Below the pieces are notes generated by a model. It ran no database searches, had not been told where the DNA came from, and was given only the letters and a program-made list of their open reading frames with translations. The position numbers and the translations under genes were made by a program. From NCBI GenBank assembly GCA_039801905.1, contig JBDRVQ010000001.1:29635-93634 (forward strand): a DNA stretch of 64,000 bases, read 5' to 3'. This document shows, in pieces, positions 1 through 59,224 of this stretch; the stretch's first letter is position 1; the number at the start of each line of letters is the position of its first letter. The stretch is from a candidate division WOR-3 bacterium. GTDB lineage: Bacteria > Hydrothermota > Tepidihabitantia > Tepidihabitantales > JBDRVQ01.

Positions 1-701
1 GAGAGGGAGCCGATCTCATACAACCTTCGGGTATTGGCACTCTCCTTCCCTCCCGCCACCAGACCGGCATCAACCTTTCCCATCACCTCCTTAAACATCT
101 TCTGCCGCCAGAAAACTTCTCGGCAGATGGTATTAAAAACGCGGATCTCCGAGAAATCATTCTTCACAATCTCCGAGAGGGCAGAATCCATAAACTCCTT
201 AGCTAAGGTCGTCTGACAAACAATCCCAACCTTATCCCATTTTCCGAGAAAAGTCAAATCCCTTTTTTGAGAAGGGTTGGTAGAAAAGAGAAAGCCTCTC
301 TCCCCCAGGTCCTCCATCAGGGAGATCACCTCCGGGTGATCCTGGTCGCCGAGCACCACAACCCGATAGCCATCCGCCAATAGCATCTCTACTATCTCCT
401 TAACCCTTCTCACATAAGGGCAAGTGGTATCAACCAATCTTATACCATATTTTTCTATTTTTTTCAAGTGGCGCGAAGAAATACCATGGGTTCTTATCGC
501 CAACACTCCTTTAAGATTCTTCCTCACCTTCTTTAAGGGGAAGATCCCCTCTCCTTTTAACTTCTCCACCACCGGCCGGTTATGAATAATCTCCCCTAAG
601 GTATAAATCTTTTTATATCTCCTCTTCGCCTCCGCTAAAAGCCGGAGGGCGCGTTTCACTCCGGAACAGAAGCCGAAGGGCTTAACCGCCAAAACCTTCA
701 T
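1..701 (-). CDS. ispH: 4-hydroxy-3-methylbut-2-enyl diphosphate reductase (IspH/LytB); 3' end runs off the window
   Basis: Minus-strand translation starts MKVLAVKPFGFCSGVKRAL (IspH N-terminal Cys motif) and later shows ...AGGKESANTRRLYEI near the C-terminus. No stop codon before position 1. The ATG overlaps the plsC stop. Confidence 0.8.
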   Translation of the reverse strand, partial: MKVLAVKPFGFCSGVKRALRLLAEAKRRYKKIYTLGEIIHNRPVVEKLKGEGIFPLKKVRKNLKGVLAIRTHGISSRHLKKIEKYGIRLVDTTCPYVRRVKEIVEMLLADGYRVVVLGDQDHPEVISLMEDLGERGFLFSTNPSQKRDLTFLGKWDKVGIVCQTTLAKEFMDSALSEIVKNDFSEIRVFNTICREVFWRQKMFKEVMGKVDAGLVAGGKESANTRRLYEIGSL

Positions 702-1976: not shown

Positions 1977-2070
1977 GTCATAATTCTAACAATAATTTCC
2001 AATTTTTCAATGGTGGAAGGATGAGCAGAAATTGTGCCGGAGAGGAAGATTTACCGAAATGGAACTGAAA

Positions 2071-2530
2071 ATTTAGTGTCAGAAAATGGGGGGTATTTCC
2101 GTATTTATTATAGAGGGCTATGAAGAAGTTAAAAGAAATTATTAAGGTAAGTTATTGGGTTCTAATCCCAACCCTTATCTCAGAAGAGAGATTAAGGAGG
2201 TGTTATGAGATAATTAGCACTTAATAAAAATGGCATTAAATCATAAGACCTTTATCAAACAGGAGGGGTTTATCTTTATAAAAAGGGGTGTAGCATACAG
2301 GGGATGGTATCAGGGATTTAATGGAAGGGATAATAGAAGTTTTAATAAAAGGCGTAATTTTAGACTTAATCGGAGATTTAATAAAGGGTTTAATCAAGAA
2401 TTTAATAGAAGGTCTAAAAGAGGATATAAAGAGAAGGATAATCAGGAGCCTAAGCCAAGGTATAATCCAGAGCCTAATTAAAGGTTTAATCCGAAGTCTA
2501 AATGGAAGCCTAATCCTAAGAGAAACTTTA
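2071..2530 (+). repeat. Modular intergenic element copy 1: leader (TATTTCCGTATTTATTATAGAGGG ... GGGTTCTAATCCCAACCC), conserved core 2261-2315, then about 17 x 12-nt T-A-A-T-phased tandem units 2322-2526
   Basis: Direct sequence comparison with the copies at 33008-33582, 56588-57735 and 19030-19440 (inverted). The 12-nt period is visible as TTAAT/CTAAT/ATAAT every 12 nt. Confidence 0.8.
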
Positions 2531-2676
2531 AGGCAGAGAGATTATTCGGAACGGATATACTCGGAGGCGTGTTAATTTTGGTTGCGGTCATATATCAAAT
2601 AAGAGAGAGAAATTGGAGATATTGGTAGTGATTGGGGTAGATAGTGAAGGGAAAAAGAGGTTATTAGCGATTCACC

Positions 2677-6090: not shown

Positions 6091-6243
6091 AAAACTATTA
6101 TAAAGAAGAAGGGAGGGGAGTCAATCTTCTCGGCAAGGGTTAACAAAGTTATGGTTGATGGTTTGCCCTTGCCAGAGGAATATTTTTAACGCTTTCCCAA
6201 TTTTGGGATGGTCACGACCTCTGTAAACATTACACAAACAGTA

Positions 6244-6271
6244 TTGATCTTATCCGAAATCGCTTTATAAT
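6244..6271 (+). promoter_or_regulatory. sigma-70-like promoter (TTGATC -16 nt- TATAAT) ending 7 nt before the addB ATG; leaderless
   Basis: Hexamers read directly from the sequence. No room for a Shine-Dalgarno. Confidence 0.45.
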
Positions 6272-12228: not shown

Positions 12229-12257
12229 TTGACGGAAGAGGAGATTTTTCTTATATT
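12229..12257 (+). promoter_or_regulatory. sigma-70-like promoter TTGACG -17- TATATT, 5 nt upstream of the ybbR ATG (leaderless)
   Basis: Read directly from the sequence. Confidence 0.45.
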
Positions 12258-14136: not shown

Positions 14137-15048
14137 GACCATCTCCTTCGCCCATTTCCGACAAAGTCTTATCGCTTCTTCCATCCCCCGGGAATCTGCC
14201 ACCCCCTTCCCCGCGATGTCAAAGGCGGTGCCGTGCAAAGGAGAGGTACGAATGAAGGGAAGACCTAAGGTGGTATTTATCCCTTTACCCTTGCCGATTG
14301 TTTTCACCATTATCATCCCCTGGTCATGATAGGGGGAAATAAAACCATCGTATCTCTTATAATAAAAGAGAAAGGAATCGGCTGGTAAAGTCCCTACGAT
14401 ATCAATTCCTAAATCTTTTAGCCTCTTTATTCCTTTCGCCATCTCCTTCTCTTCTCCCCGGGAAAATTCTCCACCGTGGGGATTGAGAGAGAAGAGACCG
14501 ATCCTTGGTGATTCAATCCCCTCAAGCCGATGGAGGAAATCATAAAGGAGAAGGCCCTTTTCCACTACCCAACGAGTTTTAATCCGAGAAGGTACTTCTT
14601 TCAAAGGACAATGTAAGGTGAGAAAGGCAATCTTTATCTTCTTATGATAGGCTAAGAAACAATAATTTCTCACCCCAAACTCCTGGGCGAAGAATTCGGT
14701 CTGGCCGGGATAAGGGAAGCCAATTCGGTAGAGGTTGCTCTTAGAAATGGGAGCGGTAACTATCCCTTTCGCCTCTCCCTTCTTTATTAAAGAAACGCCA
14801 ACCTTTAAGCCCTCCCAGGCAAATTGAGCGGTCTTCCGATCCGGTTTGCCAAAGGTAAAATCAATCCCCGGTAGAAAGTCTAAAAGATACGGTTCAAAAT
14901 CAATCGCTATCTTTAGTTTTTCTCTCAATTTTGTCAAAAGAACCCGAGCACCAATAATCTTCACTTCCTGGGGTGGGAATTTAGCAATCGCCTTTAAGAC
15001 AACCTCCGGACCAATCCCTGTTATCTCACCTAAGGTGACAACCACCAC
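14128..15048 (-). CDS. pdxA: 4-hydroxythreonine-4-phosphate dehydrogenase
   Basis: GLPFIRTSPLHGTAFDIAGKG and HDQGMIMVK motifs. The ORF extends to 15150 but a GTG at 15048 fits the PdxA N-terminus (VVTLGEITGIGPEV) and avoids overlap with the upstream gene. Start is uncertain. Confidence 0.75.
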   Translation of the reverse strand: MVVVTLGEITGIGPEVVLKAIAKFPPQEVKIIGARVLLTKLREKLKIAIDFEPYLLDFLPGIDFTFGKPDRKTAQFAWEGLKVGVSLIKKGEAKGIVTAPISKSNLYRIGFPYPGQTEFFAQEFGVRNYCFLAYHKKIKIAFLTLHCPLKEVPSRIKTRWVVEKGLLLYDFLHRLEGIESPRIGLFSLNPHGGEFSRGEEKEMAKGIKRLKDLGIDIVGTLPADSFLFYYKRYDGFISPYHDQGMIMVKTIGKGKGINTTLGLPFIRTSPLHGTAFDIAGKGVADSRGMEEAIRLCRKWAKEMVSG

Positions 15049-15076
15049 GAGAACTATCTTTTGACCATTATTACCA

Positions 15077-15910
15077 TCAATAGGTCGCCAGTATCCCTTG
15101 CCTTCGGGTATAGCGGTCAATGAGGTTGAATACCAAAATCCCGAAGGCAATCCAAAGGAAGCAGAGGAGAATCAATCGGAGAAAGAGGGTGGTTAAAGAA
15201 AAGGGAATTCTTTCCCCGATTAGGAAGTGCCTCACCCCTAAAACCCCATAAGTGGCTGGAACAAAAAGTGCCGCCTTTTGGAGAAAAAGAGGCAAAACCG
15301 CCAAGGGGTAAGCGATCGGCGTGATGACCATCATTATTCCCGAAAGGGCTTCCGAGACCAACCAACCCTGTTTGAAGATGAGGGTGAGTGCCGCCACCAT
15401 CATTCCAAAACCATAGAGGGCAAAAAGCATTAGGGCGATAATTAAAAGAGAAGGCAAAATACCACCAACCTTTATCGTAAAAGAGAAGATGATATACATC
15501 ACAATCAATTGAAAGATGACAATTATTGACTGGTGCAGGGTAGAATGGCAAGCCATCCCTAAGGCGAAGACCCAACGGGGAACCGGGGTAGCAAAGACGA
15601 TCTCTAAGGTGCCGTGAAATTGCTCTTTTCTTAAAGAGAAACCCATCGCCCAAAGCGCCATATTCAAAAAACCGATGAAGATATAACCTAATATGACAAA
15701 GGTGATAATATCACTACTTCCCGCGAGTTTCTCTAAATAAGGAGAAGAACGGCCCCCAACAATAGCGATACCGTAAAGGAGATGGGGCAAAAGGTAGACT
15801 AACGGGTCAATCATTCCTCGGATAAAATCCGCCTTATAAGCCAATTCTATCTTCCACTCTTTAATATTTTCCGCCCAGATTGCTCGCAGATATCCGATCA
15901 GCCTCTTCAT
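15077..15910 (-). CDS. ABC-2 family transporter permease
   Basis: Six predicted TM helices. Paralogous to the next gene. Likely start at MKRLIGYL (ORF extends to 15997). Confidence 0.7.
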   Translation of the reverse strand: MKRLIGYLRAIWAENIKEWKIELAYKADFIRGMIDPLVYLLPHLLYGIAIVGGRSSPYLEKLAGSSDIITFVILGYIFIGFLNMALWAMGFSLRKEQFHGTLEIVFATPVPRWVFALGMACHSTLHQSIIVIFQLIVMYIIFSFTIKVGGILPSLLIIALMLFALYGFGMMVAALTLIFKQGWLVSEALSGIMMVITPIAYPLAVLPLFLQKAALFVPATYGVLGVRHFLIGERIPFSLTTLFLRLILLCFLWIAFGILVFNLIDRYTRRQGILATY

Positions 15911-16748: not shown

Positions 16749-17740
16749 TCTGCCAAATTTTCTTTGGTATCTTCCTTTAAGGAAGTTCCCGTAATATAAA
16801 GGAAAACATCCTCTAAGGTTGGCTCCTGGTTATTGATTGACAATATCTTTCCTCCTTCCCCAATCGCCTTAATCGCCTCACTCAGAATCTCCTCCACCCG
16901 GGGGGCGATAATCTTCAAGGTTGTTATCCCATCCTTCGCAAAAGAAGAGATGCTCTCTACCATTGGTATCTTCTCAATCTTACTCTTATCCCAAGAGCCA
17001 AAAAATCTTATCTCTAAAATCTCTTTATGGGGCATCTCCTTTTTATACTCCGCCGGCGTCTTCACATCAACAATCTTACCCTTATTGATAAAGGCGATTC
17101 TGTCGCATAACTCATCCGCCTCTTCCATATAGTGAGTGGTTAAAAGTATCGTCTTTTTATGCCTCCCTTTCAATTCCTCCCGGATAAAATTCCGGATGAA
17201 ACGGGCAAAACCCGGATCCAAACCTAAGGTCGGCTCGTCTAAGAGTAAAACCTTTGGGTCGTGGAGTAAAGCCCGGGCCAAAGATAATTTCTGCTTCATC
17301 CCCGAAGAGTACCTCTCCACCCTTTCGTAAGCCACCTCCTTCAAACCTAAAAGTTCTAAAAGATAGTCAATCCTTTTATCCCGCTCCTTAGGTGAAAGTC
17401 CGTAAAGAGCCGCGAAGAATTTCAGGTTATCAACCGCGGAAAGTTTCCAATAGAGTGTCCTCTCGCCAGAGGTTAAAAGTCCAATATTCCCCTTCGCCCA
17501 AAGGGAATTGGCAAAGACATCCCGACCGAAAAGCAATATCTTCCCACTCTCTGGAATCAATAGAGTAGCGATACACCGAACCAAGGTTGTCTTCCCGGCT
17601 CCGTTCGGACCCAAAAGGCCAAAGATTTCCCCTTCGGCAATGGAGAAACTGGCATTAGCCACCGCCAGGATTTCCCTTTTTTTCAAACCCTTCCCCCGGC
17701 GGAACTTCTTCGTTAAATCCCTAACCTCTAAGGCATTCAT
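16745..17740 (-). CDS. ABC transporter ATP-binding protein (ABC-2 exporter ATPase with C-terminal extension)
   Basis: Walker A GPNGAGKTT, signature LSGGMKQKL, Walker B LLLDEPT. Likely start at MNALEVRDL, overlapping the GT4 stop as ATGA. Confidence 0.85.
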   Translation of the reverse strand: MNALEVRDLTKKFRRGKGLKKREILAVANASFSIAEGEIFGLLGPNGAGKTTLVRCIATLLIPESGKILLFGRDVFANSLWAKGNIGLLTSGERTLYWKLSAVDNLKFFAALYGLSPKERDKRIDYLLELLGLKEVAYERVERYSSGMKQKLSLARALLHDPKVLLLDEPTLGLDPGFARFIRNFIREELKGRHKKTILLTTHYMEEADELCDRIAFINKGKIVDVKTPAEYKKEMPHKEILEIRFFGSWDKSKIEKIPMVESISSFAKDGITTLKIIAPRVEEILSEAIKAIGEGGKILSINNQEPTLEDVFLYITGTSLKEDTKENLAE

Positions 17741-18849
17741 CTCTTCGCCAAAACTAATCTTATCAAATCCTCCATCTTCTGTGCCGACTCCTCCCAGGAG
17801 AATTTTTCTGCCCACATTCTCCCTTCCTTTCCCATTCTATCAACCATCTCCTCATTGTCAAGAAGAAAAGCCATCTTTTCGCTCAACTCTTTAATATCAC
17901 CGTATTGATAAAAAAGTCCAGTCTTTCCTTCTCTTACCGCATCAACCAAACCAGGAGAGCGGGCAGCAATTACCGGTGTGCCGCAGGCATTTGCCTCAAC
18001 AATAATTAGACCCCAACCCTCCTTAATGGAATTCTCAACCAAAAAGTAGGCGGATTGATAAAGATTTAACTTCTCCTCCTCTTTTATATAACCAGTAAAC
18101 TCCACAACCGCCTCCATCCCTAACTCTTTGGTCATCTTTTTTAATCTCATTAAGTCATCCCCATCCCCAACAATCACCACCCGAAAATCCCTTCGCTTCT
18201 GAAATAGGAGATGAGTTGCCAATAATAGATGGTCGGTTGATTTATACCTCTTTAACCGGCCGCAATGCAAAATAATCTTCTCTTTCTTCTTATTAAAATC
18301 CGGTTGGTAAAACTGAGTATCAATTCCGGGTGGAATCACCCTTATCCTTTCGCTAATATCCTTCTTAAATAAGTTAAGCAAATCCCTTTTGGTGCTTTCC
18401 GAAAGAACCGCAAAGTAATTATCCTTATAAACCCAAGGGATGAGATTTTCCGCAAGGTAGACATAGGTGGCAAATAAAAAAGAGGTCTCTTTATAAACCG
18501 CCTTCCGGAAGAGGTGCATCAGGATGGCTAAGACTGGAATCTCTTTTATAAAATAAGGAGAATAAAAGGGTATTTTATTTAAGTCATCAATGATTAAGTC
18601 AAAGTTATTTTCTTTAACAATTCTGGGCAAGAAGCGATACACAGTAAAATTGAAGGTATTTTTTCCGCCCCTTCTTAAAAATCTTATCCCCCCTATTTCC
18701 TCCTCATCCGGCAGATTGGCTCTTTCCGAAAGGTAGGTTATCTTAAACCCTTTTTTTGCCAATCTCCGGAAGATCTCATAAGCATAGACCTCCGCCCCTC
18801 CGGCTAAGGGATTTTTTGGGCAGCGCCAATTGATTAAGAGAACATTCAT
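17737..18849 (-). CDS. glycosyltransferase family 4
   Basis: C-terminal EGWGLIIVEANACGTPVIA GT4 (E-x7-E) region. Confidence 0.8.
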   Translation of the reverse strand: MNVLLINWRCPKNPLAGGAEVYAYEIFRRLAKKGFKITYLSERANLPDEEEIGGIRFLRRGGKNTFNFTVYRFLPRIVKENNFDLIIDDLNKIPFYSPYFIKEIPVLAILMHLFRKAVYKETSFLFATYVYLAENLIPWVYKDNYFAVLSESTKRDLLNLFKKDISERIRVIPPGIDTQFYQPDFNKKKEKIILHCGRLKRYKSTDHLLLATHLLFQKRRDFRVVIVGDGDDLMRLKKMTKELGMEAVVEFTGYIKEEEKLNLYQSAYFLVENSIKEGWGLIIVEANACGTPVIAARSPGLVDAVREGKTGLFYQYGDIKELSEKMAFLLDNEEMVDRMGKEGRMWAEKFSWEESAQKMEDLIRLVLAKR

Positions 18850-18864
18850 TAAAAGAATAGAAAA

Positions 18865-18937
18865 TGGGTCGTGCAGGATTCGAACCTGCGGCCACCGGAT
18901 TAAAAATCCGGTGCTCTGCCACCTGAGCTAACGACCC
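18865..18937 (-). tRNA. tRNA-Lys (anticodon UUU)
   Basis: Cloverleaf read from the sequence: 7-bp acceptor stem GGGTCGT/ACGACCC, anticodon stem CCGGA/TCCGG with loop TTTTTAA, T-loop GGTTCGAATCC. No encoded CCA. Confidence 0.85.
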
Positions 18938-19029: not shown

Positions 19030-19440
19030 CAATTGCCAACCCATTTATTGGGAGCGGATGGAAAGCGAAGGCTCTACTCAAAAAGAAAAGATTATCCATC
19101 TCCACTAATCATTCTCAATTAGGCTTCCATTTTCCCTTCGGATTAAACCCATAGTTAGACATAGGATTAAACTCTTTATTATCCCTTCTATTAAACTCTG
19201 AATTAAAGTTCCAATTATACCCTCTTTTAGAGTATTTATTAAATCCTCAATTAGATCTCCAATTACGTGTAAAATTATCCCTTATTTTAGACCCTATATT
19301 ATGCCTTCCATTAAATCCCCGATACCATCCCCTGTATGCTACACCCTTTTTACAAAAATAAATCCCTCCTTTCTAAGGATAGTTTTTCTTATCAGTTAGT
19401 TAATTTATTATATTATAAAGCAATTTTGGAAGATGTCAAT
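19030..19440 (-). repeat. Modular intergenic element copy 4 (inverted): consensus promoter TTGACA -16- TATAAT (19412-19439), core 19317-19370, 12-nt T-A-A-T array about 19100-19316, tail module 19030-19100 shared with copy 2
   Basis: The reverse complement matches the core and tail of copy 2 almost base for base. The promoter hexamers are perfect consensus. Confidence 0.8.
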
Positions 19441-28200: not shown

Positions 28201-28229
28201 ATCTTATAAGATAATCAAAAATAAGTCAA
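28201..28229 (-). promoter_or_regulatory. sigma-70-like promoter TTGACT -17- TAAGAT, 8 nt upstream of the ATG at 28192
   Basis: Read from the sequence. Confidence 0.35.
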
Positions 28230-32731: not shown

Positions 32732-33007
32732 TTTTCACCTCTTCACTAAAATTAAGTTTAGGGGAAAAAAAGGGAAAGTCAACATTGGTATGGAAGCAAT
32801 AAGAGAGAAGAGCCACTTTATGGTGGTAGAGATTTTTGACCAAAAGAATTGAATTTCTCGTTGATGATAATACCTTGCCAAAATAAACCTCTCGCCACCT
32901 TCTATTCAAGAAGAAGAGTTACAATCTAAGGAGTGAGCGGAAGATAAAAAGATGAAATAGAACTTTCCCACTTCGGTGGTCACACCCTTCTGAAAAGTGT
33001 CTCTTGA

Positions 33008-33582
33008 ATTAAATAAGTTATTATAAATCAAAGGCTTATAAAAAAGGGGGAAATTTAGTGTCAGAAATTGGGGGGTATTTCCGTATTTATTATAGAGGGC
33101 TATGAAGAAGTTAAAAGAAATTATTAAGGTAAGTGATTGGGTTCTAATCCCAACCCTTGAAGAGAGATTGAGGAGGTATTATCGGGTAATTAGCACTTAA
33201 TAAAAATGGCATTAAATAATAAAAAACTTTATCAAACAGGAGGGGTTTATCTTTATAAAAAGGGGTGTAGCATACAGGGGATGGTATCGGGGATTTAATG
33301 GAAGGCATAATCTAAGGCATAATTTTAGGCTTAATCGGAGTTTTAATAGAGGGTTTAATTGAGAATCTAATAAATACTCTAAAAGAAGTTATAACCGGCG
33401 GTATAATCAGAAGCCTAATTCAGAGTTTAATAGAAAGGATAATAAAGAGTTTAATCATGTGTCTAATTAAGGGTTTAATCCGAAGGGAAAATAGAAACCT
33501 AATTGAGAATGATTAGTGGAGAAGAATAATCTTTTCTCTTTGAATAGAGCCCTCGCTTTCCATCCGCTCCCAATAAATGGGT
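33008..33582 (+). repeat. Modular intergenic element copy 2: far-upstream module 33008-33050 (shared with copy 3), leader 33051-33237, core 33238-33292, 12-nt T-A-A-T array 33298-33510, tail 33490-33582 (shared with copy 4)
   Basis: Direct alignment to copies 1, 3 and 4. Confidence 0.8.
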
Positions 33583-33745
33583 AAAACTTTCCCCGGATGC
33601 GCATCGTGTGCCAATGAGGGCAAAATCTGATTTCCTTGCTGGGTGGATACCGGGAAACTATCAATAATAACACCAGAAGGATTTAAGCGGGCACCATAGA
33701 TATCAGATCACAAGATAATTTATGCCATCTTTCCCGGATTTTATG

Positions 33746-33773
33746 TTGACTTTAAGGTAATTTTTTGTAATTT
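33746..33773 (+). promoter_or_regulatory. sigma-70-like promoter TTGACT -16- TAATTT, 5 nt upstream of the aldehyde dehydrogenase ATG (leaderless)
   Basis: Read from the sequence. Confidence 0.4.
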
Positions 33774-44991: not shown

Positions 44992-45170
44992 TTCTCCACC
45001 GTGATCGCCAAATCCGGGCAGAGGTATTCGCAGAGGAGACAACCGATACATTTCTCCTCGTGCGCCACCTTGGGAAGAGAAGCGTCTTTCTCAAAAACTT
45101 TTTTGGGACAGATTTGGTAGCAAAAAAGACAACCTTTACACCATTCTTTACGGATTGCGACCTTAAACAT
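44976..45170 (-). CDS. 2-oxoacid:ferredoxin oxidoreductase, delta subunit (2x[4Fe-4S] ferredoxin)
   Basis: Two CxxCxxCxxxCP motifs in 64 aa. Confidence 0.8.
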   Translation of the reverse strand: MFKVAIRKEWCKGCLFCYQICPKKVFEKDASLPKVAHEEKCIGCLLCEYLCPDLAITVEKCQKE

Positions 45171-45171
45171 C

Positions 45172-46371
45172 TTATCCCTTCGGAGTGAAAAAGGCCCCCG
45201 TGAAAAGTATTAAGCCGGTGCGATTATCCCGAATGGCAAAGAAGAAGGGACGATTGAATACAAGATGAAACCTTTCTGGGAGGGCGGTTAAAGCCATCTC
45301 TACCGAAGTGACCGCTGCCGCCTCGGTTCCCTCTTCTGTTATGCTGAGGTAGGTCTTATGCCGGACATCGTTAATAAATAATCCCCCTTCCCCGCTCATG
45401 CCAGTAAAATCCGCCTTCTTTGGATCAAAGGCAATTGCCATATTCATCCTTTTTAAGATTTCTTTGAATGATTTTTCGTATGTCAAATGAATTCTGGGTA
45501 AAGAGATCTCCCCTTCTCTCTCATCAAACTCCTTTAAGACTTCTTCCCATCTTCCCCCTAACCATTGAACCAAACTGGCAAGGGGAAAGTTAGTATCGGG
45601 TAGAAAAAGGTAAATACTCACTTCCCCCTTTCCATAAGGCAAAGCAACTGCCGCCCAATTTTCCTTTTTGAGATAAAGAAACCTTCCCGATTGGGACATC
45701 AGCAAAATTTTCTCTTCCCCTCGGGGGGAATAAAAGAAATCTTCCTTCGTTTTCTCTTTTGGAAACTCCCTTTGCCACTTCCCTTGAAAGTAAACCGCAT
45801 TCAAAATGAATAGCACCACATTTCTCTCAATTTTTTCTATAATTTTTTCTATCTTCCCCTTGGTATTTTTCCTAACCCACTGATTAATCTCTTTTATCGC
45901 TGAGGGCTGGGAGAAGTCTAAGGTTTTTATCTTTGCTTTGAAGAACTTTCTATTTCTTTCTAAGAATTCCCTCTTTAAGGAAATTCCCTTTCTCGCCCAC
46001 AAAGAGTTAGCAATTTTTAATTCTACCTGGGGAATAGGTCTTCTTAGGAATTGGTGGAGATCGCTTAAGGCGGTATTCAAGGAGTCTAACTTCATCTCTT
46101 TTAAGTTAAGGGTTTTAGCCATCGCCTCTTTTGTTTCCCCTCCCGCTCCGTTATAAGTGCTCACCAGAGCAAGATAAACACTGATTGGAGAGATGAAGAT
46201 ATTCTCATTAAAATCTTCTGCCATTAACTCCGAAAAGAGGGAAAAACCAAACCGATTATTCCCTTGGACAAACAGAGGTGAAACCCCGGCCCTTAGCCAA
46301 GAGAAGAGAAGAAAGGAGAGAAAAACCCAGCCCTTCAACTTTTCCTTCTTCCCTTTCCAGTTTTTAAGCAT
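45172..46371 (-). CDS. serpin (serine protease inhibitor), secreted
   Basis: Hinge EEGTEAAAVT and C-terminal FNRPFFFAIRDNRTGLILFTGAF serpin signature; signal peptide. Confidence 0.85.
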   Translation of the reverse strand: MLKNWKGKKEKLKGWVFLSFLLFSWLRAGVSPLFVQGNNRFGFSLFSELMAEDFNENIFISPISVYLALVSTYNGAGGETKEAMAKTLNLKEMKLDSLNTALSDLHQFLRRPIPQVELKIANSLWARKGISLKREFLERNRKFFKAKIKTLDFSQPSAIKEINQWVRKNTKGKIEKIIEKIERNVVLFILNAVYFQGKWQREFPKEKTKEDFFYSPRGEEKILLMSQSGRFLYLKKENWAAVALPYGKGEVSIYLFLPDTNFPLASLVQWLGGRWEEVLKEFDEREGEISLPRIHLTYEKSFKEILKRMNMAIAFDPKKADFTGMSGEGGLFINDVRHKTYLSITEEGTEAAAVTSVEMALTALPERFHLVFNRPFFFAIRDNRTGLILFTGAFFTPKG

Positions 46372-46376
46372 ACTTA

Positions 46377-46404
46377 ATTATATCTCCGAGAAGGGAGATG
46401 TCAA
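46377..46404 (-). promoter_or_regulatory. consensus sigma-70 promoter TTGACA -16- TATAAT, 5 nt upstream of the serpin ATG (leaderless)
   Basis: Reverse complement of 46372-46404 reads TTGACAtctcccttctcggagaTATAATtaagtATG. Confidence 0.55.
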
Positions 46405-46413
46405 ATTATTAAC

Positions 46414-46441
46414 TTGAATAAGAAGAAAAATACCTTATAAT
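46414..46441 (+). promoter_or_regulatory. sigma-70 promoter TTGAAT -16- TATAAT, 6 nt upstream of the WG-repeat gene ATG (leaderless); divergent from the serpin promoter
   Basis: Read from the sequence. Confidence 0.5.
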
Positions 46442-46447
46442 ATTCAA

Positions 46448-47410
46448 ATGAAAAAGAGATTATTAGTTTTAATTTTTCTCACCACTGGTTTATTGGGAAA
46501 GGAAGAGTTTCCCGCTTTATTCCCGATTCGGCAAAACTTCCGCTACGGATTGATTGACTCTACGGGAAAAATTGTCGTCAAACCACAACTTGATGGAATT
46601 GATGACTTCTCAGAAGGGATGGCAGTGATTAGAATCAATAACCAGTGGGGTTATATTGATGCCCGGAACTGGCAGGTCTTAAAGACTAAGTTTGAACAGG
46701 TTGGCCGTTTCTCCGAAGGGAAGGCGCGTGTCTTATACAAAGGGAAATGGGGTTATATTGACCGAAATGGGAAATTTGTGATCAAGCCCCAGTTTGAGTT
46801 CGCCGGTGATTTTCGGGAAGGGAAGGCCGCGGTGGGTATTGGGGGCAAGGTTGGTTACATTGATTCTACTGGTAAATTTATTATCAGTCCCCAGTTTTTC
46901 TCCACCTTCAACTTTTCCGAAGGGAGAGCGGGTGTTTTAGTTGGTAATAAACTCGGTTATATTGATTCGACCGGCAAGGTGGTGATTAAACCGATCTTTG
47001 ATTTCATCTGGGACTTTAAGGAAGGTTTGGCTCGGGTAATGGTCAATAGGAAATGGGGTTATATTGACCGAAATGGGAAGTTTGTGATTAAGCCCCGGTT
47101 TGATGAGGCATTTGATTTTTCGGAGAGTCTGGCCGCGGTCCGGGTGAAGGAGAAAATCGGTTATATTGACAAAAAGGGTAAATTTGTTATCAAACCGAAA
47201 TTTAAAGCCGGTGGCGAATTTTCAGAAGGACTTGCCCCGGCCTTAGCCGATAGTCTTTGGGGTTATATTGATAAAACTGGTGAGTTTAAGATTCAACCGA
47301 GTTTTGAAATCGCCTATCCCTTCTTTCGGGGTTTGGCAAAAGTGCAAATGAAAGGAAAGATCGGTTATATTGATAGAAGGGGAATTTTTATCTGGGAGCC
47401 AACGGAGTAG
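46448..47410 (+). CDS. WG-repeat (KWG) containing lipoprotein/exported protein
   Basis: Eight tandem units of about 37 aa with KWGYIDxxGKxVIKPxF. Confidence 0.8.
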   Translation: MKKRLLVLIFLTTGLLGKEEFPALFPIRQNFRYGLIDSTGKIVVKPQLDGIDDFSEGMAVIRINNQWGYIDARNWQVLKTKFEQVGRFSEGKARVLYKGKWGYIDRNGKFVIKPQFEFAGDFREGKAAVGIGGKVGYIDSTGKFIISPQFFSTFNFSEGRAGVLVGNKLGYIDSTGKVVIKPIFDFIWDFKEGLARVMVNRKWGYIDRNGKFVIKPRFDEAFDFSESLAAVRVKEKIGYIDKKGKFVIKPKFKAGGEFSEGLAPALADSLWGYIDKTGEFKIQPSFEIAYPFFRGLAKVQMKGKIGYIDRRGIFIWEPTE

Positions 47411-51344: not shown

Positions 51345-51438
51345 AAAGGATAAGTATAACAAATTAAAGGAAAGAGTCAAGAAAAATTTGCAACCGTTAA
51401 CCATCCTCCGGTTTCCTTTTTCCCAAGGAGTTTAAATC

Positions 51439-52185: not shown

Positions 52186-52835
52186 CCTCTCATCTCCCAA
52201 AGTTTCCCTTCTTTTAGAAGGAGATACCTTCCCTTCAATTCCCCGACCATTCTCGGGTCATGGGTCACAACAACCATCGTTATCCCCATATTTTGCATCT
52301 CGCCAATCAGGTGAATGATGATTTTCGTATTATCCCCATCCAGATTGGCGGTCGGCTCGTCCAGGAGGAGATATTTCGGGTCTCGGACTATCTCCCGAGC
52401 AATCGCCACCCTCTTCTTCATCCCACCGCTCAGTTCACTCGGGAAGAGCCTCTCTTTTCCCAAAAGGCCAACAAAGGCGAGCGCCCTCTCAATCTTCTCT
52501 CGGCTATTCGCCCTTCTCTCCATTCTCAAAAAGAGGGCAAGGTTCTCATAGACATTCCAAGAATCAAAGAGGGCATCCGATTGGAAGACAAAGCCAATGC
52601 GCCTTCTAATTTTTAATAACTCCCTTTCCGGCAATTTATTAATCTCAATTCCGTCAACAATCACCTGACCCCGGTCGGGGAGTAAAAGACCGTTAATCAT
52701 CTTCAAAAGGACAGTCTTCCCACAACCGCTCTCACCGGTAACGATCACTGTCTCCCCATCTCCGACCTGCAGATTGAGGTCAGCAAGGACGAGAAGGCGA
52801 TTGAAACTCTTATAGAGATTTCTGATTTCAATCAT
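52182..52835 (-). CDS. mlaF: ABC transporter ATP-binding protein MlaF
   Basis: Walker A GESGCGKT, signature LSGGMKKRV, Walker B LLLDEPT. Start MIEIRNLYKSF overlaps the mlaE stop as ATGA (ORF extends to 52910). Confidence 0.8.
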   Translation of the reverse strand: MIEIRNLYKSFNRLLVLADLNLQVGDGETVIVTGESGCGKTVLLKMINGLLLPDRGQVIVDGIEINKLPERELLKIRRRIGFVFQSDALFDSWNVYENLALFLRMERRANSREKIERALAFVGLLGKERLFPSELSGGMKKRVAIAREIVRDPKYLLLDEPTANLDGDNTKIIIHLIGEMQNMGITMVVVTHDPRMVGELKGRYLLLKEGKLWEMRG

Positions 52836-56502: not shown

Positions 56503-56587
56503 TTATCCAACGTATTGTAACCAATTTTTCCCTTTTGTCAACCTTGGTTTTATAATAAAAAGGACTCTTAAACCCTACTTTTCCCAA

Positions 56588-56703
56588 TCAAATAAGTTAT
56601 TAAAAATCAAAGACTTATAAAAAAGGGAAAGATTTGGTGTCCAATTTTTGGGGGTATTTCCGTATTTATTATAGAGGGGTATTGGGTTCTAATCCCAACC
56701 CCG
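56588..56703 (+). repeat. Modular element copy 3, leader part (far-upstream module, TATTTCCGTATTTATTATAGAGGG, GGGTTCTAATCCCAACCC hairpin) directly preceding the RBS of the embedded two-gene cassette
   Basis: Alignment to the copy 1 and copy 2 leaders. Confidence 0.75.
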
Positions 56704-56718: not shown

Positions 56719-57087
56719 ATGAAAGATGCTTTAAGGCGAATAGAGAAGTATATATCTAAGTTAGAACCAGAGATTATAAGAAGAGATTTTGCCCAATTGA
56801 AAGAGAAGATGCTACAACAGATTACCACCTACTTTATAGAGATCTTTGAGGTTGAGACAAAGGCAAAGGCGATTTTAAGCGAATACGACCTACCGGTTAG
56901 TCTTATCCCCTTTTATCTATGCTATGCCCGGGAATTATATAGCCTTTCTAAGAGATATGCGGGATTTCCTCTCTTCCGGGAGATAAGGATTAGGGAGGGA
57001 AAATGGCGAAATAGAACTCTCCAACCGGAAATTTTAAGAAGGATAAGATTTGATATATTTGGCATAACCTTACCGGAGGAGATATGA
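56719..57087 (+). CDS. hypothetical small protein (about 122 aa) embedded in repeat element copy 3
   Basis: RBS aagagagg 6-7 nt upstream. ATGA overlap with the next ORF. No recognisable motif. Confidence 0.5.
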   Translation: MKDALRRIEKYISKLEPEIIRRDFAQLKEKMLQQITTYFIEIFEVETKAKAILSEYDLPVSLIPFYLCYARELYSLSKRYAGFPLFREIRIREGKWRNRTLQPEILRRIRFDIFGITLPEEI

Positions 57088-57419
57088 GGATTGAGATAAA
57101 GAAGAAGAAGTCACTGGAGAGATTGGCGAAGATGGCAAGGAGATATGCAGTTTATTATCCAGATGCTACAAGGAGTTACCTGAAAGGGATAGTTGACTAT
57201 GTCCTATTTGTGGAAGAGAAGGTGAAAGAGATTTTGGAGGAGCGGGGAATTTCGGTTATTTATCACTTTGCCTATTATGCCTTCGGTAGAAAGGTCTATA
57301 AACTCCTAAAAGAGAAGAAGGATTCCCAAATCCCTTCTTTAATTGAGGAGTGGGTGAAAGATAAATGTCTTTCCCGAGATGTTTTATCAGAGATTAAGGA
57401 GGCTTTATCGGAGAAGTAG
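57084..57419 (+). CDS. hypothetical small basic protein (111 aa) embedded in repeat element copy 3
   Basis: Translationally coupled to the previous ORF. Contains an R-x6-H stretch (RGISVIYH). Function unknown. Confidence 0.5.
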   Translation: MRIEIKKKKSLERLAKMARRYAVYYPDATRSYLKGIVDYVLFVEEKVKEILEERGISVIYHFAYYAFGRKVYKLLKEKKDSQIPSLIEEWVKDKCLSRDVLSEIKEALSEK

Positions 57420-57463
57420 GTCTTAAATAAGACTTAAGTTAAGTGATAAAAATTTTATGATGT

Positions 57464-57735
57464 AGGAGGGTTTTGTCTTTAGAAAAAGGGGTGTAGCATA
57501 CAGGGGATGGTATCGGGGTTCTAATGGAAAGTCTAAGTAACGGTCTAAACTTAGGTCTAATTGGAGTTCTAAATAAGGGTCTAAAAGAAGGTCTAAAAGT
57601 AGGGGTAATAAAAAGAGTAATTGGAAATCTAATTAAGAGTCTAATTGAAAATTTAATCCGAAGTCTAATTATAGTTTTAACCGAAAGCCCAATTGAAAGT
57701 CTAACCTCAAGTCTAAATATCGGCTCGGTGAAAAT
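57464..57735 (+). repeat. Modular element copy 3, core (57464-57518) plus about 17 x 12-nt T-A-A-T-phased units
   Basis: Alignment to the other copies; CTAAT/TTAAT recurs every 12 nt. Confidence 0.8.
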
Positions 57736-57755
57736 AGGGGAGGGCAATAACACTA

Positions 57756-57784
57756 TTGACAAGAATACTTTTTTTGTGTATATT
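57756..57784 (+). promoter_or_regulatory. sigma-70 promoter TTGACA -17- TATATT for hup
   Basis: Read from the sequence. About 125-nt leader with RBS aagggggtg before the ATG. Confidence 0.5.
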
Positions 57785-57914
57785 TTAGGAATGGAAGTGG
57801 CGATAGCGCCCCTCGGGGCAATACCTTGCCAAATCAATCTTTTCCCAACCATTTCTCTTTTAATAAGAAACTATCGTCCACCTTCCAAAAATCCTATTAA
57901 GGGGGTGATAAAAT

Positions 57915-58187
57915 ATGAAGAAAGCCGAACTTATTGAGAAAATCGCCAAGGATGCAGGCATCTCCAAGAAACAGGCGGGGCTCGCTCTCCAATCCTTTAT
58001 GGATGCGGTGAAGATGGTGATGAAGAAAGATGACGAACTGACCCTTCCCAAATTTGGCCGGTTCTATGTGAAGAAGACAAAAGCCCGAATTGGCCGGAAT
58101 CCAAAAACCGGAGAGGAGATAAAAATTCCAGCCAGGAAGAGACCGGCCTTCCGCGCGGGGAAGGAATTAAAACTCGCTGCTAAATAA
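57915..58187 (+). CDS. hup: DNA-binding protein HU
   Basis: MKKAELIEKIAK... with the arm GRNPKTGEEIKIPARKRPAFRAGKELK; 90 aa. Confidence 0.92.
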   Translation: MKKAELIEKIAKDAGISKKQAGLALQSFMDAVKMVMKKDDELTLPKFGRFYVKKTKARIGRNPKTGEEIKIPARKRPAFRAGKELKLAAK

Positions 58188-58207: not shown

Positions 58208-59224
58208 GTGGGCGTTCCCCAGAAAGCGCTTCCACCTCTTCTTCCTGCCCTCAATTCTTCCCCTCCCCATCTCAAAATCTTAGACCAAACAAAATTACCC
58301 CAGAAAGTTTCTTACCGCCGGATTAAAAATCACTACGAGTTGCTCAGAGCCATTAGGGGATTACAAATCAGAGGGGCACCGCTCATCGGCGTCGCCTCCG
58401 CCTATGGCGTTGCCTTAGAGGCGGTGAGAATAAAAAAGGACTTAAAGAGAAGGCTCCTTTCGGTGATTAATGATCTGCGAAAAGCCCGTCCTACCGCCTT
58501 CAATCCCTTCTTCATTTTAAAGAGGATGGAAGAGACTCTTAAATTAGAACTACCCGAAGAGGAATTACGCCTTCGCCTTTTGGAAGAGGCGGCAAAGATT
58601 GAAAAAGAAGAGAGAGAAAAGTGCGAAAAGATTGGCACCCACGGTGCCCAATTATTAAAAGATGGGACAAAGGTCCTAACTATCTGCAATACGGGTTTTT
58701 TAGCCACCCCCGGCATCGGCACCGCCCTGGGAATAATTTATAAGGCGAAGGAAGAAGGGAAGAGGATAAAGGTCTTTGTCTGCGAAACCCGACCCCTCCT
58801 CCAAGGGGCAAGGCTCACCACCTGGGAGTTGCAGAAAAGAGGGGTTGAAACCTTTTTAATCACCGACGGGATGGTGGGTAAGGTGATGGGGGATATTGAT
58901 ATTGTCCTCACCGGTGCCGACCGCATCGCCCGGAATTATGACTTTGCCAATAAGGTTGGCACCTTAACCCTGGCAATTTGTGCCTCCTATTATAAAAAGC
59001 CTTTTTACTGCGCGGCTCCCACCTCCACCATTGATCTCTCCTTGCAGGACGGGAGCGAAATTGCGATTGAGGAGAGAGGGGAGGAAGAGGTTCTAACTTG
59101 CTTAGGAAGACGCATCGCGCCGAAGGGGATTAAGGTGCTTAACCCTTCTTTTGATATTACCCCCCACCAGTTGTTGACCGGTCTCATCACCGAAGAGGGG
59201 ATAATTAAATTGGCAAGAAGGTAG
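58208..59224 (+). CDS. mtnA: eIF-2B alpha/beta/delta-family isomerase (S-methyl-5-thioribose-1-phosphate isomerase MtnA-like)
   Basis: ILDQTKLP N-terminal motif, RGAPLIGVASAYG, and C-terminal residues of the family. The true start may be a few codons downstream. Confidence 0.7.
   Translation: MGVPQKALPPLLPALNSSPPHLKILDQTKLPQKVSYRRIKNHYELLRAIRGLQIRGAPLIGVASAYGVALEAVRIKKDLKRRLLSVINDLRKARPTAFNPFFILKRMEETLKLELPEEELRLRLLEEAAKIEKEEREKCEKIGTHGAQLLKDGTKVLTICNTGFLATPGIGTALGIIYKAKEEGKRIKVFVCETRPLLQGARLTTWELQKRGVETFLITDGMVGKVMGDIDIVLTGADRIARNYDFANKVGTLTLAICASYYKKPFYCAAPTSTIDLSLQDGSEIAIEERGEEEVLTCLGRRIAPKGIKVLNPSFDITPHQLLTGLITEEGIIKLARR

What the first reader, a model, noticed from the sequence alone, without database searches (positions are those of the whole stretch)
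46372..46447. Back-to-back consensus sigma-70 promoters with no 5' UTR: leaderless translation appears to be common in this organism
In the 76-nt serpin/WG-repeat intergenic region, both strands carry near-consensus promoters. On the minus strand TTGACA-16-TATAAT ends 5 nt before the serpin ATG; on the plus strand TTGAAT-16-TATAAT ends 6 nt before the WG-repeat ATG. The same geometry recurs at addB (TATAAT 7 nt before ATG 6279), ybbR (TATATT 5 nt before ATG 12263), the aldehyde dehydrogenase (TAATTT 5 nt before ATG 33779) and the T9SS-cargo gene (TAAGAT 8 nt before ATG 28192). With a start site about 7 nt after the -10 element, these mRNAs begin at or within a few nucleotides of the start codon with no Shine-Dalgarno. 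In contrast recA, hup and the cassette gene at 56719 have classical GGAGG-type RBSs and leaders.
Basis: seen in the sequence. Interest (0 to 1): 0.5.

Follow-up and report, generated by a model that had tools for sequence, protein, structure and literature searches.

The report
Leaderless genes in a WOR-3 bacterium
In this uncultured hot-spring bacterium of candidate phylum WOR-3, most operons start with a near-textbook promoter only 5-8 bases before the start codon, so their mRNAs should have essentially no leader; this mode of gene expression is well known in other bacteria but had not been described for this phylum.

Summary
The 76-nt serpin/WG-repeat spacer is filled by two divergent promoters: TTGACA-16-TATAAT, 5 nt, ATG on the minus strand, and TTGAAT-16-TATAAT, 6 nt, ATG on the plus strand.

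The geometry recurs. Nine of about 15 operon-leading genes in the window have TTGnnn-16/17-TAnnnT ending 5-8 nt before an ATG, and a tenth has an 11-nt gap. None of 27 operon-internal genes has it; those carry Shine-Dalgarno motifs.

All ten starts are ATG and are the most upstream start possible. Most are required by a signal peptide or a Pfam domain boundary.

The organism is a candidate division WOR-3 MAG. The -35, the -10 and the gap length are conserved for five gene families in relatives at 51-93% protein identity, while spacer sequences drift.

Loci from other phyla, scanned the same way, show 0 of 37 strong sites with this gap, against 23 of 72 in WOR-3.

This matches the known "TA-led" or GeneMarkS-2 "group C" leaderless organisation of Actinobacteria and Deinococcus-Thermus. 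It is a new lineage for a known phenomenon. Transcription start sites are inferred, not mapped.

The parts
46377..46404 (-). Serpin promoter: -35 TTGACA (46404..46399), 16-nt spacer, -10 TATAAT (46382..46377). 5 nt (taagt) to the ATG at 46371.
   Evidence: Orthologous promoters in L001 (TTGACT-17-TATAAT, gap 5) and L002 (TTGACA-16-TATAAT, gap 5).
46414..46441 (+). WG-repeat gene promoter: -35 TTGAAT, 16-nt spacer, -10 TATAAT. 6 nt (attcaa) to the ATG at 46448.
   Evidence: Orthologues: L001 (TTGACA-16-TATAAT, gap 6) and L009 (TTGACA-16-TATGAT, gap 7).
45172..46371 (-). Serpin gene (399 aa, Pfam Serpin E=2e-107) with an N-terminal signal-like segment. The predicted leaderless start at 46371 is the most upstream start possible.
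46448..47410 (+). WG-repeat protein gene (320 aa, 8 WG_beta_rep units). The signal peptide MKKRLLVLIFLTTGLLG begins at the called ATG.
1983..2010 (-). cmk promoter TTGAAA-16-TAGAAT, 6 nt to the ATG at 1976.
   Evidence: The Cytidylate_kin domain starts at residue 6 and the P-loop lies at residues 10-17.
6097..6124 (-). S8 peptidase promoter TTGACT-16-TATAAT, 6 nt to the ATG at 6090.
   Evidence: Signal peptide at the N-terminus.
6244..6271 (+). addB-like nuclease promoter TTGATC-16-TATAAT, 7 nt to the ATG at 6279.
   Evidence: Conserved in L018 and L020 (TTGATT-16-TATAAT, gap 7).
12229..12257 (+). ybbR promoter TTGACG-17-TATATT, 5 nt to the ATG at 12263.
   Evidence: Conserved in L018/L019, L020 and L021 with gap 5-6, even where it overlaps the 3' end of addA.
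28201..28229 (-). FlgD_ig/T9SS-type cargo gene promoter TTGACT-17-TAAGAT, 8 nt to the ATG at 28192. A leader of 0-2 nt is predicted.
33746..33773 (+). Aldehyde dehydrogenase promoter TTGACT-16-TAATTT, 5 nt to the ATG at 33779.
   Evidence: The Aldedh domain starts at residue 13.
51353..51380 (-). NiFe-hydrogenase operon promoter (Fer4_22 subunit first) TTGACT-16-TATACT, 8 nt to the ATG at 51344. This is the true start; the longest-ORF start at 51404 is wrong.
56514..56541 (-). GT2 glycosyltransferase operon promoter TTGACA-16-TACAAT, 11 nt to the ATG at 56502. A leader of about 4-5 nt without SD is predicted.
32755..32782 (-). Contrast case: recA promoter TTGACT-16-TAAACT, ending 23 nt before the ATG at 32731. 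The leader carries SD GAGGTG.
17834..17861 (-). Contrast case: ABC-transporter operon promoter TTGACA-16-TAGAAT, 18 nt before the GTG at 17815, with GGAAGGGAG in between.

Best explanation
The window comes from a candidate division WOR-3 bacterium from a hot-spring MAG series. Its housekeeping RNA polymerase recognises E. coli-like promoters, with consensus TTGAC(T)-16 nt-TATAAT.

For about 60% of transcription units, the -10 hexamer ends 5-8 nt before the start codon of the first gene. RNA polymerase normally starts 6-9 nt after the -10 and prefers a purine that follows a pyrimidine. Transcription is therefore predicted to begin at the A of the ATG, or 1-3 nt before it.

The resulting mRNA has no Shine-Dalgarno sequence and essentially no 5' UTR. 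Its first cistron would be translated by the leaderless pathway, in which a ribosome with initiator tRNA binds a 5'-terminal AUG. Downstream cistrons of the same operons, and a minority of leadered first genes (recA, hup, the ABC transporter), use ordinary SD-led initiation.

The serpin/WG spacer is the extreme case. Two such promoters lie back to back with their -35 hexamers 9 bp apart, so the 76-nt intergenic region is made up entirely of core promoter.

Shown: the promoter motifs, their spacing, their restriction to operon heads, the validity of the start codons, conservation in relatives, and SD use at internal genes.

Inferred: the exact start sites and the translation mechanism.
For: 1. 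Geometry. Ten operon heads have TTGnnn-16/17-TAnnnT with gaps 5, 5, 5, 6, 6, 6, 7, 8, 8 and 11 nt to an ATG.

2. Specificity. 0/27 operon-internal genes have TAnnnT at gap 5-8, against 9/15 heads (p = 1e-5). SD matches of >=5 nt occur in 11/27 internal genes, 3/4 leadered heads, 0/10 leaderless-geometry heads and 7% of random positions.

3. An excess of strong sites over Markov simulations: 25 versus 9.3, and for >=11/12, 7 versus 0.55.

4. Start codons. All ten are ATG, and none has an in-frame start further upstream. Signal peptides (serpin, WG, S8, cargo), the ybbR transmembrane segment, the cmk P-loop and the Aldedh, GT2 and Cytidylate_kin domain starts at residues 6-13 fix the N-termini. 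All four ybbR homologues found are 297 aa long with 100% coverage.

5. Conservation in other WOR-3 genomes of the -35, the -10 and the gap, but not of the spacer sequence:
- serpin: 3 genomes, gap 5.
- WG: 3 genomes, gap 6-7.
- Hydrogenase Fer4_22: 5 genomes, gap 8-9.
- ybbR: 5 loci from four distinct genomes (L018 and L019 are near-identical), gap 5-6.
- addB: 3 genomes, gap 7.

6. A test that does not depend on gene calls. Among strong promoter-like sites, an ORF of >=100 aa opens 4-9 nt downstream in 8/25 (window) and 15/47 (WOR-3 relatives), but in 0/37 in loci from Firmicutes, Actinomycetota and Sericytochromatia. In those loci, 14/37 open at 10-60 nt (p = 3e-5).

7. Identity. Proteins 100% identical to window proteins are annotated 'candidate division WOR-3 bacterium' and lie in GCA_039802025.1. 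Syntenic relatives are WOR-3 MAGs.

8. The pattern equals the published definition of bacterial leaderless genes. That definition is TANNNT with its first T about 12 bp before the start codon (PMC3160421), or a Pribnow box 6-8 nt from the start of first genes in operons with an RBS for the rest (GeneMarkS-2 group C, PMC6028130).

9. NCBI's annotation calls the 343-aa start at the position equivalent to 51344. The Logan gene calls take the upstream 363-aa start.
Against: - No transcription start site, N-terminal peptide or ribosome-profiling data exist for this organism, so the 5' ends are predicted only.
- With gaps of 8-11 nt (28192, 51344, 56502), a 1-5 nt leader is as likely as a strictly leaderless RNA.
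- The sample is one 64-kb window with about 15 transcription units, plus about 146 kb from relatives. It is not a genome.
- About 9 of the 25 strong promoter-like sites are expected by chance. One gap-7 hit (30971) is an internal in-frame ATG.
- A more distant relative (L012, 57% GC) shows an SD-led orthologue and no convincing example. In L013 the S8 orthologue has a leader of about 65 nt with AGGAGG. The trait is therefore neither universal across the phylum nor fixed per gene.
- ybbR and the genes behind serpin could also be reached by read-through transcripts.
Confidence: 0.85

Rival explanations
1. Short-leader variant. The promoters are real, but transcription starts 1-5 nt upstream of the AUG in many of these genes, especially those with gaps of 8-11 nt. 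The mRNAs would then be very short-leadered and SD-less rather than strictly leaderless, and initiation might differ in efficiency or factor requirement.
For: - Gaps of 8 nt (28192, 51344), 8-9 nt in the orthologues, and 11 nt (56502).
- The modal start position of sigma-70 polymerases is 7-8 nt after the -10 (own knowledge; PMC12641261 describes start-site selection by a 3-bp 'start' element).
- One relative shows a minimal leader that holds only an SD: L019 8162, TATAAT-14 nt-ATG with AGGAGG.
Against: - In the gap 8-9 family, the bases just before the ATG are mostly pyrimidines (tatccttt, ttcttttt, tcttttctt). In those orthologues the A of the ATG is therefore the first purine in the usual start range.
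- Published surveys count 5' UTRs under 6 nt as leaderless (PMC6028130), so this is a matter of degree.
Confidence: 0.3
2. Leadered, SD-independent mRNAs. Transcription starts at other, more distant promoters. The TATAAT-like sequence near the ATG would only be an A/U-rich, unstructured ribosome landing site, as in the SD-poor Bacteroidota (GeneMarkS-2 group B).
For: - WOR-3 is usually placed near the FCB group (own knowledge), where 90% of genomes are group B (PMC6028130).
- A/U-rich sequence before start codons does favour initiation (own knowledge).
Against: - Every start-proximal TAnnnT is matched by a TTG-type -35 at 16-17 nt. Chance would give this a few percent of the time per site.
- The motif is absent from all 27 internal genes, whereas group B motifs precede internal genes too (definition).
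- SD is clearly used by internal genes.
- In the 76-nt serpin/WG spacer there is no room for another promoter.
- Both hexamers are conserved islands in diverged orthologous spacers.
Confidence: 0.05
3. Artefact. The motifs are chance matches in AT-rich intergenic DNA, or the start codons are mis-called and the real starts lie further downstream, which would leave ordinary leaders.
For: - About 9 strong promoter-like sites per window are expected by chance.
- Naive longest-ORF calling did misplace one start (51404) and produced spurious ORFs.
Against: - Seven >=10/12 sites end 5-8 nt before real starts, against about 0.06 expected.
- The called ATGs cannot move upstream. For most genes, moving downstream would delete a signal peptide, the P-loop or a domain start.
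- Orthologues keep the same N-termini and gaps.
- Control loci from other phyla give 0/37.
- The one corrected start moved onto a promoter-proximal ATG, not away from one.
Confidence: 0.02

Closest known systems
Bacterial 'TA-led' leaderless genes / GeneMarkS-2 group C genomes (Actinobacteria such as Mycobacterium, Streptomyces and Corynebacterium; Deinococcus-Thermus; some Aquificae)
   Same: - A Pribnow-type TANNNT box ends about 5-8 nt before the start codon of the first gene in an operon.
- There is no SD in between.
- Internal genes and a minority of first genes use SD.
- The share is similar: here about 10 of 54 genes and about 60% of operon heads. Published figures are about 19% of genes in Actinobacteria, 39% in Deinococcus-Thermus, and 25-50% of operons in group C (PMC3160421, PMC6028130).
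   Different: - The lineage is candidate phylum WOR-3. No paper in the searched library holds both 'leaderless' and 'WOR-3'.
- The genome has 45% GC.
- The promoters carry a strong E. coli-like -35 (TTGAC) with a dominant 16-nt spacer. Actinobacterial leaderless promoters show little -35 conservation (own knowledge).
- In the 2011 survey only 1 of 37 Bacteroidetes/Chlorobi genomes had detectable leaderless genes.
Deinococcus deserti leaderless transcriptome (de Groot et al. 2014, as cited in PMC6028130)
   Same: Most first genes have a -10 directly upstream of the start codon. 167 of 262 genes with both a verified translation start and a mapped TSS were experimentally leaderless. The organism is likewise a stress- or heat-adapted non-model bacterium.
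   Different: That case was proven by dRNA-seq and proteogenomics; this one is inferred from sequence. The phylum and GC content also differ.
Lambda cI mRNA from PRM and Tn1721 tetR (classic E. coli leaderless mRNAs; own knowledge)
   Same: The mRNA starts at the A of the AUG and is translated without an SD through a 5'-terminal AUG. cI is also part of a compact divergent promoter region.
   Different: Those are isolated exceptions in an SD-dominated genome. Here the arrangement is the majority mode for first cistrons.
Bacteroidota-type expression signals (-33 TTTG / -7 TAnnTTTG promoters; SD-poor leadered mRNAs; GeneMarkS-2 group B)
   Same: They belong to a neighbouring part of the bacterial tree (FCB group). 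Many genes there also lack an SD.
   Different: Here the promoters are the canonical TTGACA/TATAAT type. SD is used at internal genes, and the start-proximal motif is limited to operon heads. This window does not follow the group B pattern.

Membership tests
Bacterial leaderless ('TA-led', GeneMarkS-2 group C) gene organisation | A TANNNT (-10-like) motif ends about 5-8 nt (first T about 11-13 nt) upstream of the start codon of first genes in operons. | tested here: met
   9 of about 15 operon heads have gaps of 5-8 nt, and one more has 11 nt.
Bacterial leaderless ('TA-led', GeneMarkS-2 group C) gene organisation | The motif is absent upstream of operon-internal genes, which carry an RBS (dual start model). 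| tested here: met
   0/27 internal genes have TAnnnT at gap 5-8. 11/27 have a >=5-mer SD, against 7% at random positions.
Bacterial leaderless ('TA-led', GeneMarkS-2 group C) gene organisation | No SD between the promoter and the start codon, and a start codon suited to 5'-terminal initiation (AUG, less often GUG). | tested here: met
   0/10 have a >=5-mer SD. The single GGAG 4-mer, upstream of the serpin gene, lies in the promoter spacer and so upstream of the predicted start site. 10/10 starts are ATG.
Bacterial leaderless ('TA-led', GeneMarkS-2 group C) gene organisation | The pattern holds genome-wide, not only in one region. | tested here: inconclusive
   Only 64 kb of this genome and about 146 kb from relatives were available. 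The signal is strong there, but no whole genome was analysed.
Bacterial leaderless ('TA-led', GeneMarkS-2 group C) gene organisation | Primary transcript 5' ends map at the start codon (5' UTR under about 6 nt). | not testable with these tools
   No transcriptome data are accessible. This needs dRNA-seq, Cappable-seq or 5'-RACE.
Bacterial leaderless ('TA-led', GeneMarkS-2 group C) gene organisation | Translation of the 5'-terminal AUG mRNA without SD pairing. | not testable with these tools
   This needs a biochemical or reporter assay.
Sigma-70 (housekeeping) type promoter | A -35 TTGACA-like and a -10 TATAAT-like hexamer separated by 16-18 nt. | tested here: met
   The consensus of 18 aligned promoters is TTGAC(t)-16-TATAaT. 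Two sites in the window score 12/12.
Sigma-70 (housekeeping) type promoter | A group-1 sigma factor with regions 2.4 and 4.2 is encoded by the organism. | not tested
   I did not find rpoD among the genes I annotated in the window. I did not search the rest of the genome.
Bacteroidota-type signals (GeneMarkS-2 group B) | A non-SD motif lies close to the start of both first and internal genes, with -7 TAnnTTTG / -33 TTTG promoters. | tested here: not met
   The start-proximal motif occurs only at operon heads. The hexamers are TATAAT/TTGACA type, and SD is present at internal genes.

The most novel reading that the evidence does not exclude
Leaderless first cistrons driven by canonical TTGAC-16-TATAAT promoters may be a clade-wide, ancestral trait of a large part of phylum WOR-3 (Caldipriscota/Stahliibacteriota). 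WOR-3 sits next to the FCB group, whose best-known members use different promoters and SD-poor leadered mRNAs. That would add a deep-branching, largely thermophilic lineage to the few bacterial phyla where leaderless initiation is the main mode for operon heads. It would also bear on whether leaderless initiation is ancestral or linked to thermophily.
Probability: 0.5. Interest if true: 0.4.

Novelty: new member of a known kind. Interest (0 to 1): 0.3.

Why it matters
Practical consequences:
- Gene callers tuned to SD sites can misplace starts in such genomes. Here the 363-aa call for the hydrogenase Fer4_22 subunit in the Logan assemblies contrasts with the 343-aa call in NCBI's annotation, which orthologues support.
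- Such errors affect signal-peptide and N-terminal domain prediction for WOR-3 MAGs.
- The promoters are close enough to the E. coli consensus that WOR-3 genes could be expressed and their start sites mapped in E. coli.

Conceptual consequences:
- It extends the known phylogenetic range of leaderless-rich bacteria to a candidate phylum that has only just been cultured.
- It shows that a relative of the FCB group does not share the Bacteroidota expression signals.

It does not reveal a new mechanism.

Tried and rejected
- Exact-sequence look-up of the WG-repeat protein: not on record. The hydrogenase large subunit and ybbR look-ups did work and gave the organism.
- Rfam at gathering threshold over the whole window found only tRNA-Lys. 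There is no riboswitch or leader RNA near these genes.
- An inverted repeat (ATCTCC-N6-GGAGAT) in the serpin promoter spacer could have been an operator. It is absent from L001 and L002, so I treat it as chance.
- I tested whether the spacing between the two -35 elements (9 bp) is constrained. It is 14 bp in L001, so there is no evidence for it.
- 16S anti-SD and ribosomal protein S1: neither gene is in the window. Downstream of cmk and plsC lies ispH, not rpsA. SD use at internal genes was used as an indirect test instead.
- The GeneMarkS-2 supplementary tables, which might list WOR-3 or FCB relatives by group, are not held.
- L012, the most distant relative (57% GC), gave no convincing leaderless promoter. 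I do not claim the trait for the whole phylum.
- Longest-ORF gene calls at 15117-15653, 14128-15150, 16833-17132, 52260-52616 and 51404 were rejected as spurious or mis-started after inspection.

Full report
**1. The observation**

The sequence is as described.
- Minus strand: TTGACA (46404..46399), 16 nt, TATAAT (46382..46377), then taagt and the serpin ATG at 46371.
- Plus strand: TTGAAT (46414..46419), 16 nt, TATAAT (46436..46441), then attcaa and the WG-repeat ATG at 46448.
- The two -35 hexamers are 9 bp apart and point away from each other. The 76-nt spacer is exactly 5+6+16+6+9+6+16+6+6 nt, so nothing but core promoter lies between the two start codons.
- Pfam confirms the gene identities: Serpin at E=2e-107 and eight WG_beta_rep units.

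**2. Recurrence in the window**

I scanned both strands for sigma-70-like sites. The criteria were at least 4/6 matches per hexamer, at least 10/12 overall, and a 16-18 nt spacer.
- There are 25 such sites, against 9.3 +/- 3.4 in first-order Markov simulations.
- There are 7 sites at >=11/12, against 0.55 simulated.
- Seven of the 25 end 5-8 nt before a gene start, counting the corrected start at 51344. Random placement would give about 0.06.

Relaxing the pattern to TTGnnn-16..18-TAnnnT adds the aldehyde dehydrogenase and the FlgD_ig cargo gene. The full list follows.

| Gene | Start | Strand | Promoter | Gap (nt) |
|---|---|---|---|---|
| cmk | 1976 | - | TTGAAA-16-TAGAAT | 6 |
| S8 peptidase | 6090 | - | TTGACT-16-TATAAT | 6 |
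| addB-like | 6279 | + | TTGATC-16-TATAAT | 7 |
| ybbR | 12263 | + | TTGACG-17-TATATT | 5 |
| FlgD_ig cargo | 28192 | - | TTGACT-17-TAAGAT | 8 |
| Aldehyde dehydrogenase | 33779 | + | TTGACT-16-TAATTT | 5 |
| Serpin | 46371 | - | TTGACA-16-TATAAT | 5 |
| WG repeat | 46448 | + | TTGAAT-16-TATAAT | 6 |
| Hydrogenase Fer4_22 subunit | 51344 | - | TTGACT-16-TATACT | 8 |
| GT2 | 56502 | - | TTGACA-16-TACAAT | 11 |

I curated the gene map. That meant removing spurious ORFs, recognising the ABC and Mla operons, and finding the POR delta gene directly behind serpin. About 15 transcription-unit heads remain. Nine have a gap of 5-8 nt and one has 11 nt.

The leadered heads are:
- recA: the -10 ends 23 nt upstream; SD GAGGTG.
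- The ABC ATPase: 18 nt to the GTG at 17815, with GGAAGGGAG in between.
- hup: 57915, confirmed as HU by Pfam; SD GGGGGTGA; the nearest promoter-like site is 130 nt upstream.
- The cassette gene at 56719.

**3. Promoters, not just AT-rich DNA**
- Each start-proximal TAnnnT has a TTG-type -35 at 16-17 nt.
- None of 27 operon-internal genes has TAnnnT at gap 5-8 (Fisher p = 1e-5 against 9/15 heads).
- Internal genes are enriched for SD: 11/27 have a >=5-mer match to AGGAGGTGA, against 7% of random positions. The ten leaderless-geometry heads have none.
- The anti-SD system is therefore in use. The two modes are partitioned between first and later cistrons, as the dual model for GeneMarkS-2 group C genomes describes (PMC6028130).

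**4. Start codons**
- All ten starts are ATG and are the first possible start after an in-frame stop.
- Moving downstream would remove the signal peptides of serpin, WG, S8 and the cargo protein. It would also remove the transmembrane segment of YbbR and the P-loop of Cmk (residues 10-17).
- The Pfam domains of Cmk, GT2 and Aldedh begin at residues 6, 6 and 13, at profile position 1.
- All four YbbR homologues found are 297 aa long with full coverage.
- For the hydrogenase Fer4_22 subunit, the longest ORF starts at 51404, but orthologues align only from residue 21. The upstream stretch is not conserved in L001. NCBI's annotation of the identical contig aa, whereas the Logan calls take 363 aa. 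The corrected start at 51344 sits 8 nt behind a promoter.

**5. Organism and relatives**
- Proteins identical to window proteins are annotated 'candidate division WOR-3 bacterium' and occur in GCA_039802025.1 (JBDRVP...).
- The best syntenic relative is L001/L018, from WOR-3 MAG JZ-2_201705_bins_152 (GCA_039802085.1). It shares 41-93% protein identity across the syntenic genes of a stretch of about 16 kb.
- Further WOR-3-like loci came from metagenomes and MAGs (L002, L009, L010, L013/L021, L019, L020).

**6. Conservation of the geometry**

Aligned on the -10:

| Gene family | Gaps (nt) |
|---|---|
| Serpin | 5 (window), 5 (L001), 5 (L002) |
| WG repeat | 6 (window), 6 (L001), 7 (L009) |
| Fer4_22 subunit | 8 (window), 8 (L001), 8 (L010), 9 (L009), 9 (L013) |
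| ybbR | 5 (window), 6 (L018/L019), 6 (L020), 5 (L021) |
| addB | 7 (window), 7 (L018), 7 (L020) |

- In the window-versus-L001 alignment, the hexamers and the ATGs are conserved islands in an otherwise diverged spacer.
- In the relatives, the ybbR promoter overlaps the end of addA, with an intergenic distance of only 30 nt, and is still kept.
- The mode can switch. The S8 orthologue in L013 has a leader of about 65 nt with AGGAGG. addB in L021 is operon-internal. The Fer4_22 orthologue in the distant, 57% GC locus L012 is SD-led.

**7. A control that does not depend on gene calls**

For every strong promoter-like site, I asked where the first start codon opening an ORF of >=100 aa lies.

| Sequence set | Opens 4-9 nt downstream | Opens 10-60 nt downstream |
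|---|---|---|
| Window | 8/25 | 5/25 |
| WOR-3 relatives (146 kb) | 15/47 | 6/47 |
| Firmicutes, Actinomycetota and Sericytochromatia loci fetched with the same serpin query (105 kb) | 0/37 | 14/37 |

The difference in the 4-9 nt class has p = 3e-5.

**8. Mechanism (inferred)**
- With the -10 ending at -7, the canonical +1 is the seventh base downstream. Starts at the sixth to ninth base are common, and purines following a pyrimidine are preferred (own knowledge; a YRY-type 'start' element is described in PMC12641261).
- Gaps of 5-8 nt put the A of the ATG at the sixth to ninth base.
- In most cases the base before the ATG is a pyrimidine, so tATg itself forms a Y-R-Y start element.
- The RNAs should therefore begin at, or 1-3 nt before, the AUG. 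They would be translated by the leaderless route known from lambda cI, mycobacteria, Deinococcus and archaea.
- The gap-11 GT2 promoter would give a leader of about 4-5 nt without an SD.

**9. Comparison with what is known**
- The pattern is the one defined by Zheng et al. 2011 (TANNNT about 12 bp before the start codon; PMC3160421) and by GeneMarkS-2 group C (PMC6028130).
- Those surveys found it mainly in Actinobacteria and Deinococcus-Thermus, in some Aquificae and others, and almost never in Bacteroidetes/Chlorobi (1 of 37 genomes). The FCB group is 90% group B.
- No paper in the searched library combines 'leaderless' with 'WOR-3'. The recent WOR-3 genome survey does not mention promoters or SD.
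- What differs here is the lineage, and the strong E. coli-like -35 with a preferred 16-nt spacer.
- A cultured WOR-3 strain now exists (PMC12285271), so the prediction can be tested.

**10. Verdict**

It is a new lineage for a well-known mode of gene expression, not a new mechanism. Interest is modest at 0.3. The main practical value is for start-codon annotation of WOR-3 MAGs, with a small addition to the phylogenetic map of leaderless initiation.

Noticed in passing
window 2025-2600 (+), 33007-33620 (+), 19411-18940 (-), 56586-56701 plus 57385-57730 (+): A four-copy repeat element of about 450-600 nt.
- 5' module: contains a T-arm-like hairpin (TTGGGTTCTAATCCCAA) and an AGGAGG.
- Core: an invariant stretch of about 60 nt (AGGAGGGGTTTATCTTTATAAAAAGGGGTGTAGCATACAGGGGATGGTATCGGGGATTTAATGGAAGG).
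- 3' part: a 12-nt periodic array built around TAAT.

The reading frame from the ATG is open in only two copies (84 aa, and 137 aa with no Pfam hit). It stops after 5 codons in the other two, yet the periodicity is kept. One copy has two small genes (56719-57087, 57084-57419) inserted between its halves. There is no Rfam match. The nature of the element is unexplained.
   Followed up: partly
window 19412-19439 (-): A perfect 12/12 promoter (TTGACA-16-TATAAT) with no ORF behind it. It points through the degenerate repeat copy towards tRNA-Lys (18937..18865) and the GT4 gene at 18849. It may be the tRNA promoter with a leader of about 470 nt.
   Followed up: no
window 51344 vs 51404 (-); L014 7376 vs L015 5216: The hydrogenase Fer4_22 subunit is called 343 aa in the NCBI record and 363 aa in the Logan assemblies of the same sequence. 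Orthologues and the promoter support 343 aa. This is an example of start misplacement caused by leaderless organisation.
   Followed up: yes
window 45170-45174 (-): The serpin stop codon (TAA) is followed after 1 nt by the ATG of a ferredoxin-like POR delta subunit (MFKVAIRKEWCKGC...), with AAGGGA as its SD. A secreted serpin therefore appears to head the 2-oxoacid:ferredoxin oxidoreductase operon. In L002 the serpin is instead divergent from the POR genes.
   Followed up: partly
L013 6940-7030 (-): The orthologue of the S8 peptidase has TTGACT-17-TATAAT followed by a leader of about 65 nt. The leader holds a hairpin (ccagcttccgggctgg), an A-run and AGGAGG. The same gene is thus leaderless in the window genome and SD-led in a relative.
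   Followed up: no
L019 8120-8164 (+): TTGACG-16-TATAAT followed by aaaaaaggaggaaa and then the ATG. The predicted leader of about 8 nt would consist of little more than the SD, which is an intermediate form between the leaderless and leadered modes.
   Followed up: no
window 57756-57784 (+), inside ORF 57524-57937: A strong promoter-like site (TTGACA-17-TATATT, 11/12) lies inside the 137-aa repeat ORF. It is 6 nt before an in-frame ATG (57791) and 130 nt before hup (57915). It may be the hup promoter.
   Followed up: no
L018 11844 / L019 6020 / L020 8320: A leaderless-geometry promoter (TTGACT-16-TAGAAT) is followed by tgGTGGTG. Two annotations of near-identical sequence choose different GTGs (gap 2 versus gap 5). 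This is a possible GTG-initiated leaderless gene.
   Followed up: no
window 58208-59224 (+): This gene hits Pfam 'Initiation factor 2 subunit family' (IF-2B). In bacteria this family is usually methylthioribose-1-phosphate isomerase (own knowledge), so it should not be read as a translation-factor peculiarity linked to leaderless initiation.
   Followed up: no
window 46383-46398: An inverted repeat, ATCTCC-N6-GGAGAT, fills the spacer of the serpin promoter. It is not conserved in L001 or L002, so it is probably chance rather than an operator.
   Followed up: yes
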